Below, piece after piece: positions 24,735-27,700 of a DNA stretch of 64,000 bases. Origin of the DNA: Octopus sinensis (Eukaryota); contig NC_042997.1 in assembly GCF_006345805.1 (NCBI RefSeq), forward strand, positions 110,794,001-110,858,000, written 5' to 3'. Numbering within the stretch: the stretch's first letter is position 1; each line of letters begins with the position of its first letter. Made by a program: the position numbers.

Positions 24735-27700
24735 TATATAGGTGTGAGAGAGTTGGTATGTTTATATCTGGCTTTCATGCCGGTGGCATGTAAAAAGCAA
24801 CCACTACACTCTCGGAGTGGTTGGCGTTAGGAAGGGTATCCAGCTGTAGAAACTCTGCCAGATCAGATTAGAGTCTGGTGCAGCCATCTGGTTCGCCAGA
24901 CCTCAGTCAAATCGTCCAACCCATGCTAGCATGGAAAGCGGACGTTAAACGATGATGATGATATATGGTGTATCATCAGATCCCAAAACCTGTTGATCCA
25001 AAACCTCTTAAAGGGCAATAATCTGTTCACTGGGAGCTGCACAAAGCCAGATTTCATAGGGGGGATGCAATCAGAAAACTACTACTTTCAGAAACAAACA
25101 TTGCAAAGCATTTTGAGTGGAGTAAGAACCTACACAATTGGTCCCTAGAGCAGTGGAAGAATGTTATTTTCTCGGACATATCATCATATACCCCATTTTT
25201 GACCACTGGCCAAGTATCCACGTGGAGACAGCCAAAAGAAGCATTTGACCCAGACAACCTTCTTCCAACTGTTAAACATGGAGGAGGATCTGTGATGATC
25301 TGAGGGGCAATATCTTGGAAATCCGCCGGCCCAATGGTTTCCCTTCATGGCAGAATTAATAGTGAAAACTATTTAAGTATTTTATCTGATCAAATTCATC
25401 CTATGGTTGCGGAACTGTTTCTGGAGGGAAGCGCAATCTTTCAGGATGATAATGCACCAATTCACACAGCTAAAGTTGTTACTGAATGGCACGAGGAACA
25501 TTCTAGTGAAACTGGACATCTTATCTGGCCACCACAATCCCCAGATCTCAATATTATTGAATATTAATGGTGCATTTTAGAAAAACAAGTAAAGAGTTGA
25601 TATCCTCCACCATCATCACTACAAGAACTGGAGATTGTTTTAGCTGAAGAATGGAGAAAAATTCCTTTGGAAACAATTCAGACTTTGTACGAGTCCATAC
25701 CTCATAGAATTCAAGTTGCAATTACTGCCAATGGTGGTCCTGCCCTATATTAAAATAAATTTGTTTGAAATTTTAAGGTGTCTCCATTATTTTGTCCAAC
25801 CCCTCTGTATATAATTATACAGATATAATTATAATTAAGGGTACTGAGAAAATAGCACCTACATGCTAGAGATAGATGTCAAATGACTTTAAAAGACACT
25901 TCAAAATACATTCAATTTGCATAAGGCTGAAAGAAAGGAAATGAATAAAAGGCATTTAGTAAAAATGAAAAAATTTTTAACTTTTTGCTAATTGCGTTAA
26001 TTTTTACCTTTATGGTTTTTTACATGCTGACCACTGATAATGTGTACAATATGGGACCAGATTCGGCCAGTTTGAACATAGAAAAGGTAGAATGCTTGCG
26101 CTAGGTACAGTGAGTTTGAGCATAAAACAGGTAGACTATTTCGGCCAGATGGGGGTCAGTTTAAATGCTAAAGGATTATAACATTTGATGCTTTTCACTA
26201 AAAGTGTTTACTTTTTTGTAAAGTCCACATCAGACATTTTTCTGACAATTCCCTCTATGCCTTTGTTTTGTATCGCATTCCTCAGTGCTCAGTCACTAAC
26301 CAGGGTGAATAGAAAAGGGTAGTGTAGACATCTTTGTCTAACACTTGGAGGTATTAGGAAAAAAAAATCAGTGGTCAGTGTGGCCAGCTTCAGTCCTGAT
26401 ACAATATGTAAATTTGATTAAAGTGGTGAGCAGGCAGAAATGTTAGCATGCTGGGTGAAATGCTTTTATTTCACATTACTTCAATGAGTTCAATTCCCAG
26501 TAACATGACGTATCCTTGAGCAAGACACTTTATTTTACATTGCTCCTGTCCATTCAGCTGGCAAAAATGAGTTGTACCAGTAATACAAAGGGTCAGCCTT
26601 ATCGTATTCTGTGTCACACTCAATCTCTCTGAGAACTCCATGTTTAGGGTGTGCATGTCTGTGGAGTGCTCAGCCACTAATTTCACAAGCAAGCTGTTCT
26701 GTTGATCAGATCAATTGGAACCCAGTTTTATTGTACATCCAAACAGGGTACCCCAACTGCTATTTCTGAAATACTTCAGATATATCACCAGTTATCAATA
26801 ATTATAGGTGTTCAAACAATTAAGCATCTCTGACCAAATTCTTGCATGAAAGCTTTGACCTATTTTATCTCTGTAGAACCTAATTCTTCACATCTGCCAA
26901 AGAAGAAACACCCAACGACAGTACTTTGGTGTAAAGATTGTTTGCCAACATAACATGGTAGTTCTGGTTTAGGACAAATGTTACTGTAATTTAGCCCCAG
27001 GAGATATCGTCTCCAGCTGGTTATACAACACGATCTGTGTCCTTGTATTTTCGAAGAAGAGCATTTAGCACCCCGACTCAGCTCAAAACAATATGTGTGT
27101 ATCGCGATTTCCGGGTTATTTCCCTTCATCAGCACAGAATAATTGTTTGGTTAGGGCTGCCAAATTCCCATTCAAAATATATAGTTTTCAAAGTGACAAC
27201 TAGTCACTGATTTATAAATTAGAAAATTACTATTTTTAAATCTCTCACCGAGAGATATTAAGTAACACTATTTTGTAGTAAAGATTGTTTGCCAACATAA
27301 CATGGCAGTCCTGGTTTAGGATGAACATTGCTGTAATTTAGCCCCAGGAGACATCGTCTCCAGCTGGCTATACAACATGATCTGTGTCCTTATATTTTCG
27401 AACAAGGGAATCTAGCACCCCCACTCAGCTCAAAACAATATCTGTGTATCATGATTTCCAGGTTATTTCCCTTCATCAGCACAATAATTGTTCACATAGA
27501 GATGGTGCTGCCAAATTCTCGTTGGAAATATATAGTTTTCAAAGTGATAACTAGTCACTGATTTTGTTGTGAGATTTACAAATAGTAATTTTCTAACAGT
27601 AATTTTATTCTTTCACTCAAACTGTTCCCAATCTGAGAAAAAAATTTATGCAATTAAAAGTTAACGAGGGAATTAATTCATTAGAGCAAAAGTTGCTTAT

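What the first reader, a model, noticed from the sequence alone, without database searches (positions are those of the whole stretch)
26931..27600. Tandem dimer of 347-bp units each carrying a type I hammerhead: candidate cephalopod retrozyme/circRNA system
Seen in the sequence: two direct repeats 347 bp apart, each with a minus-strand CUGAUGA/GAAA hammerhead core, an extended stem I and a palindromic helix III (TCGCGA in one copy, TCATGA in the other). The palindrome is kept, although CpG decay on both strands could also give this change. There is no coding capacity, and a small inversion lies at the predicted 5' end. Established: minimal type I hammerheads with palindromic helix III self-cleave as dimers in Penelope-like elements and in metazoan non-LTR retrozymes, whose tandem units yield small circular RNAs. 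Inference: a transcript across both copies would be cut at 27447/27446 and 27100/27099, releasing a 347-nt monomer that could circularise and be mobilised in trans. I do not know of this family being described in octopus, but I could not check. The A.G pair closing stem II is atypical.
Basis: partly seen in the sequence, partly recalled or inferred. Interest (0 to 1): 0.85.

Follow-up and report, generated by a model that had tools for sequence, protein, structure and literature searches.

The report
Decayed hammerhead retrozyme dimer in octopus
Two head-to-tail copies of a 347-base non-coding repeat in an octopus genome each carry a complete self-cutting hammerhead RNA motif, which makes this most likely an old, decaying copy of a known kind of small circular-RNA mobile element rather than something new.

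Summary
Two direct repeats lie 347 bp apart (26918-27264, 27265-27595; 87% identical). Each carries a complete type I hammerhead core on the minus strand, with predicted cuts at 27100/27099 and 27447/27446. A 29-nt inverted segment and the A.G pair closing stem II are also there. A full-motif descriptor hit only these two sites; 2 of 300 window shuffles gave one hit. The 347-nt monomer is strongly self-paired (z -5.78), is 37% GC and has no recognisable coding capacity. No RT or GIY-YIG domain was found among 105 window ORFs. A cyclophilin B exon is 100% identical to Octopus sinensis. These features fit metazoan non-LTR retrozymes. Against: Rfam's hammerhead models give no match even at E<=10. 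The conserved G10.1-C11.1 pair is replaced by A.G. The units differ by 12.8%, with no excess of pair-preserving changes. The helix III duplex between the two diverged copies is weak. Genome copy number, cleavage and circles could not be tested. Verdict: a probable relic dimer, a new member of a known kind, of modest interest.

The parts
26918..27264 (-). Unit 1, 347 bp, the 3' unit in RNA sense. It comprises a 296-bp body (26918-27213) plus a 51-bp linker (27214-27264).
   Evidence: Direct-repeat families D2 and D5; alignment A1; GC 36.6%, 8 CpG.
27265..27595 (-). Unit 2, 331 bp, the 5' unit in RNA sense. The body is 27265-27564; its upstream linker is replaced by an inverted 29-nt piece.
   Evidence: GC 37.2%, 3 CpG.
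27096..27136 (-). Hammerhead 1, type I. C3 is at 27132 and H17 (A) at 27100; the predicted cut is between 27100 and 27099. Stem II is AGGG/CCCG, closed by A.G. Helix III is A-U and U-A with a palindromic CGCG loop.
27443..27483 (-). Hammerhead 2. C3 is at 27479 and H17 at 27447; the predicted cut is between 27447 and 27446. Stem II is AGGG/CCUG. The helix III loop is CAUG.
27100..27446 (-). Predicted 347-nt monomer between the two cut sites.
   Evidence: Linear MFE is -106.4 kcal/mol against -76.6 (sd 5.16) in 100 shuffles, z -5.78. Circular MFE is -100.9 with 63% of bases paired. The plus strand of the same stretch gives -87.5, z -4.12.
27043..27181 (-). Copy 1 hammerhead domain with the long extension of helix I. 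The 5' arm is about 27181-27133 and the 3' arm about 27099-27043.
   Evidence: Hammerhead-constrained fold: 49 pairs, 5 of them G.U.
27390..27540 (-). Copy 2 hammerhead domain with the same long helix I extension. It carries a 6-nt insertion and a 2-nt deletion relative to copy 1.
27219..27247 (-). 29-nt 'tail' segment in direct orientation within the linker between the units. It lies next to a short palindrome, ATCTCTC-GGT-GAGAGAT, at 27240-27256.
27568..27596 (+). Inverted copy of the 29-nt tail at the 5' end (RNA sense) of the array.
   Evidence: Inverted repeat I1, 93% complementary; sequence.
26918..26927 (.). Left copy of a candidate 10-bp target-site duplication (plus strand ACAGTACTTT). 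It is also 8/10 identical to the internal unit junction at 27265-27274, so it may be unit sequence.
27596..27605 (.). Right copy of the candidate duplication (plus strand ACAGTAATTT), 9/10 identical to the left copy.
24410..24700 (+). Remote relative of the unit in the same orientation, without a hammerhead. It has been reshaped into a near-perfect hairpin of about 200 bp and is followed by (TA)n.
   Evidence: Local alignment score 98 against 46.2 (sd 7.2, max 73) in 300 shuffles; 0 of 161 control window pieces reached 98. Fold z -15.8. No descriptor hit.

Best explanation
This is an old two-unit insertion of a non-autonomous, non-LTR retrozyme-type element in an Octopus genome. It belongs to a tandem-repeat family whose minus-strand RNA carries a type I hammerhead.

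Inferred working mode of the family:
1. A multimeric minus-strand transcript folds.
2. Neighbouring hammerheads pair through their palindromic helix III to form a double hammerhead.
3. [quoted passage not shown]
4. A host RNA ligase closes the monomer into a highly self-paired circle.
5. A reverse transcriptase from an autonomous element, most likely a Penelope-like element, copies circles or multimers into tandem cDNA that integrates.

Shown here: the motif, the tandem arrangement, the self-paired monomer, the absence of coding capacity and of a Penelope-like ORF at the locus, and the octopus origin.

Inferred: transcription, cleavage, circularisation and mobilisation.

This particular copy looks like a relic. 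The units have drifted apart neutrally, and the helix III duplex between them is now weak.
For: Motif: the complete canonical core (C3-A9, G12-A14, A15.1-U16.1, A17) with three helices is present in both units. It is found nowhere else in the 64 kb, and 2 of 300 shuffles gave one hit.

Agreement with the published description of metazoan non-LTR retrozymes:
- The published elements are tandem units of about 150-450 bp with GC below 45-50%, no LTR/PBS/PPT, and 'highly self-paired' circRNAs of about 170-400 nt (passages of PMC7229834).
- Here the unit is 347 bp at 36.6/37.2% GC, and the monomer folds at z -5.78.
- The operational rule of Li et al. [quoted passage not shown] Here the values are -8.3 and -6.8.

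Other support:
- The hammerhead strand folds better than its complement: -106.4 (z -5.78) against -87.5 (z -4.12).
- No RT or GIY-YIG domain was found in 105 ORFs of the window.
- A remote relative lies 2.6 kb away, so the unit belongs to a dispersed family.
- Penelope-like elements are annotated in O. vulgaris: a row reading 30 / 329 / 1.8 Mb in a table passage of PMC13282606.
- The ends show a 9/10 direct repeat exactly at the boundaries and an inverted 29-nt piece at the 5' end. This recalls the tail and the inverted 5'-truncated copies of Penelope-like insertions.
Against: - Rfam 15 gives no hammerhead match at gathering score over the window, nor at E<=10 over 1.1 kb or over 91 nt.
- The 10.1-11.1 pair, described as highly conserved G-C (PMC4209133), is A.G in both copies.
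- Nearest-neighbour folding prefers an inactive pairing of the core: -13.0/-12.5 free against -4.7/-5.5 kcal/mol when constrained to the hammerhead fold.
- Helix III between the two present copies is weak: -4.8 against -12.1 and -9.2 kcal/mol.
- There is no sign of constraint since the duplication. Substitutions fall at 12/98 paired against 7/63 unpaired positions. Changed pairs were 7 kept and 4 broken on copy 1's structure, and 4 kept, 6 broken and 4 gapped on copy 2's. None was compensatory.
- The core escaping 38 substitutions is not significant by my estimate of about 0.15.
- Only two units are present, and only one remote relative lies in the 64 kb.
- Copy number, expression and cleavage are unknown.
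- The candidate target-site duplication is confounded by similarity to the unit's own junction and by its near-palindromic AGTACT core.
Confidence: 0.6

Rival explanations
1. A hammerhead-like motif that arose by chance, or is long dead, inside an ordinary structured non-autonomous repeat (SINE- or MITE-like) that was locally duplicated once. No ribozyme biology is involved. The rod-like fold simply reflects inverted repeats in the DNA.
For: - Rfam's hammerhead models do not match.
- A.G replaces the conserved G10.1-C11.1 pair.
- There is no structural constraint between the copies.
- The only relative in the window lacks the hammerhead and is itself a DNA palindrome.
- At 0.0067 chance hits per 64 kb, a genome of a few Gb would hold a few hundred chance motifs (my extrapolation).
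- The plus strand is also well folded, z -4.12.
Against: A chance motif would also have to sit in a tandem repeat of retrozyme size, have its stem I continue into a helix of about 45 bp, carry a palindromic helix III, and lie on the better-folding strand. The core is perfect at all invariant positions in both copies.
Confidence: 0.22
2. Remnant of an autonomous Penelope-like element. The two units would be pseudo-LTRs left in tandem after loss of the internal RT-EN ORF, or a solo-pLTR array, rather than a dedicated non-autonomous family.
For: - Penelope-like elements carry hammerheads in their pLTRs and insert as partial tandems, with a 30-40 bp tail and inverted 5'-truncated copies.
- Li et al. 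2026 find Xenopus retrozymes to be sister to pLTRs.
- Penelope-like elements are annotated in O. vulgaris.
Against: - No RT or GIY-YIG domain in 105 ORFs of the window, and none between the hammerheads, which are 347 nt apart rather than about 3 kb.
- Helix II is short (3-4 bp), whereas Penelope min-hammerheads have 6-8 bp.
- The monomer is a compact self-paired rod, as in retrozymes.
- No octopus Penelope-like sequence was available for comparison.
Confidence: 0.13

Closest known systems
Metazoan non-LTR retrozymes (Cervera and de la Pena 2020, PMC7229834; for example the Mytilus galloprovincialis repeats of about 350-390 bp and the axolotl repeats of 330/350 bp)
   Same: - Tandem units of a few hundred bp, each with a type I hammerhead.
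- Low GC and no ORF.
- A highly self-paired monomer.
- A weak helix III with a palindromic loop, which implies dimeric cleavage.
- A mismatch at the base of helix II, also seen in axolotl HHR_Amex2 as U.U.
   Different: - Only a dimer is seen here, and it is old and diverged.
- The mismatch at the base of helix II is A.G.
- Rfam's models do not match.
- No expression or cleavage data exist.
- The host is a cephalopod, which none of my literature searches found described.
Hammerheads in pseudo-LTRs of Penelope-like elements (Cervera and de la Pena 2014, PMC4209133; Craig et al. 2021, PMC8557442; PAc study, PMC11167929)
   Same: - Type I topology with a palindromic helix III that acts as a dimer.
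- A possible extra nucleotide after A9.
- Tandem insertion, with a tail-like 29-nt piece found inverted at one end.
   Different: - No RT/EN ORF.
- Helix II is 3-4 bp rather than 6-8 bp.
- The hammerheads are 347 nt apart rather than about 3 kb.
Newt/salamander satellite 2 and Dolichopoda pDo500 hammerhead satellites (PMC7229834, PMC2837043)
   Same: Repeats of about 330-500 bp whose hammerheads have a very short helix III and work as double hammerheads.
   Different: Those form long arrays with many copies and documented transcripts. Here there are two units at one locus.

Membership tests
Hammerhead ribozyme, type I | Invariant core: C3 U4 G5 A6 N7 G8 A9, G12 A13 A14, A15.1-U16.1, and H17 not G | tested here: met
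   Both copies read CUGAUGA ... GAAA ... U A.
Hammerhead ribozyme, type I | Three helices around the core, with helix I open-ended | tested here: met
   Stem I is 4-5 bp and then continues as a long helix. Stem II is 3 G-C/G.U pairs plus A.G. Stem III is 2 bp with a palindromic tetraloop.
Hammerhead ribozyme, type I | Conserved G10.1-C11.1 pair | tested here: not met
   A.G in both copies; the pair is described as highly conserved in PMC4209133. Read instead as an unpaired A after A9, an extra G is left before G12.
Hammerhead ribozyme, type I | Match to Rfam hammerhead covariance models | tested here: not met
   No match at gathering score or at E<=10 over 1.1 kb and over 91 nt.
Hammerhead ribozyme, type I | Self-cleavage at H17 | not testable with these tools
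   Needs in vitro transcription of monomer and dimer.
Metazoan non-LTR retrozyme | At least two consecutive tandem units, each with a complete hammerhead (rule of Li et al. 2026) | tested here: met
   Two units at spacing 347, each with a descriptor hit; rule read.
Metazoan non-LTR retrozyme | Unit of about 150-450 bp, GC below 45-50%, no ORF, no LTR/PBS/PPT | tested here: met
   347 bp at 36.6/37.2% GC. The longest frame is 96 aa with no Pfam hit. I did not search specifically for a PBS or PPT.
Metazoan non-LTR retrozyme | Monomer RNA highly self-paired | tested here: met
   z -5.78; 63% of bases paired as a circle.
Metazoan non-LTR retrozyme | Many genomic copies as monomers, dimers and multimers | not testable with these tools
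   No eukaryotic genome collection was available. Within the window there are only the dimer and one remote relative.
Metazoan non-LTR retrozyme | Expressed as linear and circular RNA of unit length | not testable with these tools
   No transcriptome access.
Metazoan non-LTR retrozyme | Co-existence with autonomous Penelope-like elements in the host | tested here: inconclusive
   None in this window. A repeat annotation of O. vulgaris lists Penelope-like elements (table passage of PMC13282606).
Penelope-like element pseudo-LTR | RT plus GIY-YIG ORF between the flanking repeats | tested here: not met
   No such domain in 105 ORFs. The repeats abut each other.
Penelope-like element pseudo-LTR | Tail of 30-40 bp and/or inverted 5'-truncated copy at an end | tested here: inconclusive
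   A 29-nt segment of the linker is inverted at the 5' end, and the 3' unit lacks the last 46 nt of the linker. There are no other insertions to compare.

The most novel reading that the evidence does not exclude
This would be a cephalopod retrozyme family that is still active elsewhere in the genome and yields abundant circular RNAs of about 347 nt. Its insertion scars would be a roughly 10-bp target duplication, a 3' end that stops 46 nt short of the full unit, and a 29-nt inverted piece at the 5' end. Those scars would record priming of reverse transcription from both DNA ends at internal RNA sites. That behaviour was shown in vitro for a Penelope-like element. The scars would then be direct genomic evidence that Penelope-like elements mobilise retrozymes.
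Probability: 0.15. Interest if true: 0.55.

Novelty: new member of a known kind. Interest (0 to 1): 0.3.

Why it matters
If confirmed genome-wide, it would extend hammerhead retrozymes to cephalopods. Octopus genomes are rich in repeats, and a row for Penelope-like elements appears in the O. vulgaris repeat annotation that I saw. It would also point to an unannotated source of small circular RNAs in octopus tissues. The end structure of this insertion, if repeated at other loci, could help test the proposal that Penelope-like elements mobilise retrozymes. As a single decayed locus it changes little.

Tried and rejected
- Rfam scans: whole window at gathering score, 1.1 kb and 91 nt at E<=10. 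No hammerhead or other ribozyme family matched; only weak chance matches to mir-3167, ST7-OT4_3, hilD 3'UTR and snoU82P.
- Tandem Repeats Finder did not report the dimer.
- ARAGORN found no tRNA-like gene, so a tRNA-derived SINE head is not supported. A B-box-like GTTCGAA that I saw by eye was not pursued.
- RNAalifold on the two copies gave 0 compensatory pairs, and its MFE consensus mispairs the core. The unbiased count shows no constraint.
- Target-site duplication search: one 10-mer with 1 mismatch at the exact boundaries. By my rough estimate, one such match somewhere in the searched flanks is expected by chance. The 10-mer also resembles the unit's own junction. I leave it as a candidate.
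- The looser pattern CTGATGA-N(6-30)-GAAA gave 5 hits against 1.59 expected. The three hits outside the repeat (1988, 6470, 14949) fail the full descriptor.
- The relative at 24.4 kb was examined as a possible third hammerhead copy. It has none, and its similarity to the hammerhead half is patchy and confounded by its own palindrome.
- Literature: searched hammerhead, retrozyme, Penelope-like, octopus, cephalopod and squid terms. Only two listed papers held 'octopus' together with 'hammerhead' or 'retrozyme'. PMC8557442 treats Naiad elements, which lack canonical hammerheads, in cephalopods. PMC10886601 only cites an octopus SINE paper. No listed paper describes hammerheads or retrozymes in cephalopods.
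- Lunse et al. 2017 on dimeric cleavage was not in the library; I saw it only as a cited title.
- Not done: a genome-wide copy search.
- The cyclophilin B gene was searched with one exon only; the exons were not joined.
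Full report
**What is there.** The stretch 26918-27605 holds two head-to-tail copies of a non-coding unit.
- The repeat finder reports 26918-27136 vs 27265-27483 at 89% identity (spacing 347), and 27156-27213 vs 27507-27564 at 91% (spacing 351).
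- blastn gives 86% over 302 nt and finds no further copy in the 64 kb.
- My alignment of the homologous block has 38 substitutions in 298 aligned columns (12.8%, Jukes-Cantor 0.14). These are 26 transitions and 12 transversions, 8 of them at CpG sites. There are also 8 gap columns.
- Unit 1 keeps 8 CpG and unit 2 keeps 3.
- Tandem Repeats Finder did not list the dimer.

**The hammerhead.** On the minus strand both units read, 5' to 3': UGUG CUGAUGA AGGG AAAUAA CCCG GAA A-UCGCGA-U A | CACA. Copy 2 has CCUG and UCAUGA.
- All invariant core positions are present.
- Helix III is two base pairs (A15.1-U16.1, U-A) capped by a palindromic tetraloop. This is how PMC4209133 and PMC7229834 describe metazoan type I hammerheads that work as dimers (passages).
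- Stem II closes with A.G instead of the conserved G10.1-C11.1. If the A is read as the extra nucleotide after A9 that is typical of Penelope-type hammerheads, an extra G is left before G12.
- A full descriptor that I wrote after seeing the motif hits only these two sites in the window. 2 of 300 dinucleotide shuffles of the window had a single hit. The two hits are one event by descent.

**Evidence against a canonical hammerhead.**
- Rfam 15 gives no hammerhead match at gathering score, nor at E<=10 over 1.1 kb or over 91 nt.
- Nearest-neighbour folding prefers a pairing of CUGAU with the helix III segment: -13.0 and -12.5 kcal/mol free, against -4.7 and -5.5 when constrained to the hammerhead fold. 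This is expected for a motif that needs a partner.
- The predicted helix III duplex is -12.1 kcal/mol for two copies of unit 1 and -9.2 for two copies of unit 2. It is only -4.8 between unit 1 and unit 2, which is the pair a transcript of this locus would offer.
- So the palindrome kept in each copy does not show that this locus still works. Two CpG decays of CGCG give a palindrome in 2 of 4 outcomes (my count).

**The rest of the unit.**
- The 347-nt RNA between the cut sites folds at -106.4 kcal/mol against -76.6 (sd 5.16) for 100 shuffles, z -5.78.
- As a circle it folds at -100.9 kcal/mol with 63% of bases paired.
- Helix I continues through an internal loop into a helix of about 45 bp.
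- The complementary strand folds less well: -87.5 kcal/mol, z -4.12. This is a weak pointer that the hammerhead strand is the RNA strand.
- GC is 36.6 and 37.2%.
- The longest frame across the units is 96 aa and has no Pfam match.

These properties match the published description of metazoan non-LTR retrozymes. That description is of tandem units of about 150-450 bp, low GC, no LTR features, and highly self-paired circRNAs of about 170-400 nt. The locus also meets the operational rule of Li et al. 2026: two consecutive units with complete hammerheads and a hammerhead MFE below -5 kcal/mol. The values here are -8.3 and -6.8.

**No constraint since the duplication.**
- Mapped on copy 1's hammerhead-constrained structure, the changed pairs are 7 kept and 4 broken.
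- Mapped on copy 2's structure, they are 4 kept, 6 broken and 4 gapped.
- None is compensatory.
- Substitutions hit 12 of 98 paired and 7 of 63 unpaired positions.
- RNAalifold's '0 broken' comes from its own choice of pairs.

The units have therefore drifted neutrally. The O. vulgaris repeat study equates distances to consensus of 0.09 with 25 My and 0.2 with 56 My (passage). If the units were identical at insertion, a pairwise distance of 0.14 puts the insertion at very roughly 20 My. This is an inference and assumes that rate applies here.

**Ends of the insertion**. In RNA sense the internal junction reads as follows:
- the body end, ...CTTTAC TAC AAAATAGTGT
- then TACTTAATATCTCTCGG
- then a 29-nt tail, 27247-27219
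- then TTTAT
- then the next body

The other end features are these:
- The 3' unit stops at AAAGTACTGT (26927-26918), so it lacks the last 46 nt of a full unit.
- At the 5' end the body of unit 2 is preceded by ACA and by the 29-nt tail in inverted orientation (27568-27596, 93%).
- That inverted tail is preceded by AAATTACTGT (27605-27596), which is 9/10 identical to the 3' end.

One reading is a 10-bp target duplication plus a twin-priming-like 5' inversion. This would fit a Penelope-like enzyme that extends both DNA strands and starts reverse transcription at internal RNA sites, leaving an optional 30-40 bp tail. It would also fit the inverted 5'-truncated copies seen next to such elements.

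The other reading is that the 10-mer is unit sequence. It is 8/10 identical to the internal junction and nearly palindromic around AGTACT. In that case the 5' linker was rearranged later. I cannot decide between these readings from one locus.

**Context.**
- No RT or GIY-YIG domain was found among 105 stop-to-stop ORFs of at least 80 aa. There were 139 such ORFs; I dropped 34 for low sequence complexity before the scan. So the unit is not the end of an autonomous Penelope-like element at this locus.
- A remote relative of the unit lies at about 24410-24700 in the same orientation. Its alignment score is 98, against 46.2 (sd 7.2, max 73) in 300 shuffles; 0 of 161 control pieces reached 98.
- That relative has no hammerhead. 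It is a near-perfect hairpin (z -15.8) followed by (TA)n.
- The host is an octopus. The exon at 7216-7419(-) is 100% identical over 68 aa to cyclophilin B of Octopus sinensis and 91% to Argonauta hians. I searched that single exon only and did not join exons.

**Comparison with what is known.**
- Retrozymes with type I hammerheads are described in cnidarians, a mussel, arthropods and amphibians (PMC7229834; abstract, passages and the Discussion).
- In vertebrates they have been tied to the pseudo-LTRs of Penelope-like elements (Li et al. 2026 preprint; abstract, part 1 of the Results and one Methods section).
- My three searches combining hammerhead, retrozyme, Penelope-like, octopus, cephalopod and squid terms listed no paper describing them in cephalopods. 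The two papers that hold the words together do so incidentally.
A cephalopod entry there cannot be excluded.

**Verdict.** The retrozyme reading is the best explanation (confidence 0.6), but as a relic dimer of a family whose activity, copy number and RNA products are untested. The rivals are a chance or dead motif in an ordinary structured repeat (0.22) and a Penelope pseudo-LTR remnant (0.13). It is a new member of a known kind and of modest interest.

Noticed in passing
window 24410-24700: An element of about 200 bp forming a near-perfect hairpin (RNA fold z -15.8). It is remotely similar to the non-hammerhead half and the linker palindrome of the 347-bp unit, lies in the same orientation, and is followed by a (TA)n run at about 24686-24740.
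   Followed up: partly
window 2503-2754, 5612-5905, 7036-7419 (minus strand): Three exons of a cyclophilin-type peptidyl-prolyl isomerase gene (Pfam Pro_isomerase). The 7216-7419 exon is 100% identical to PPIB of Octopus sinensis. The hammerhead dimer lies about 19.5 kb from this exon, on the same strand.
   Followed up: partly
window 25304-25564 (+), within about 24930-25750: Fragment of a Tc1/mariner-type transposase (Pfam DDE_3, E 5e-9) interrupted by stops.
   Followed up: no
window 28354-30000 and beyond (to about 30180): Minisatellite of a 38-bp unit, at least 43 copies, 97% matches, beginning about 750 bp from the dimer.
   Followed up: no
window 27857-28045 and 28056-28112: Trinucleotide (TCA/CAC)n and (ACAG)n microsatellites about 250 bp from the 5' end of the array. 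Penelope-like elements are reported to favour microsatellite targets, but the dimer is not directly adjacent to these.
   Followed up: no
window 14211-14564, 43081-43479, 57826-58161, 61786-62184: ORF translations share a recurring peptide-like string (...LQSDLA.FL.LDALPN.NHSESVV...). This points to a dispersed repeat, probably a SINE, present in both orientations.
   Followed up: no
window 1988-2014 (+), 6470-6504 (-), 14949-14968 (-): Three further CTGATGA...GAAA matches. They fail the full hammerhead descriptor, and the loose pattern's count of 5 was reached by 3 of 100 shuffles.
   Followed up: yes
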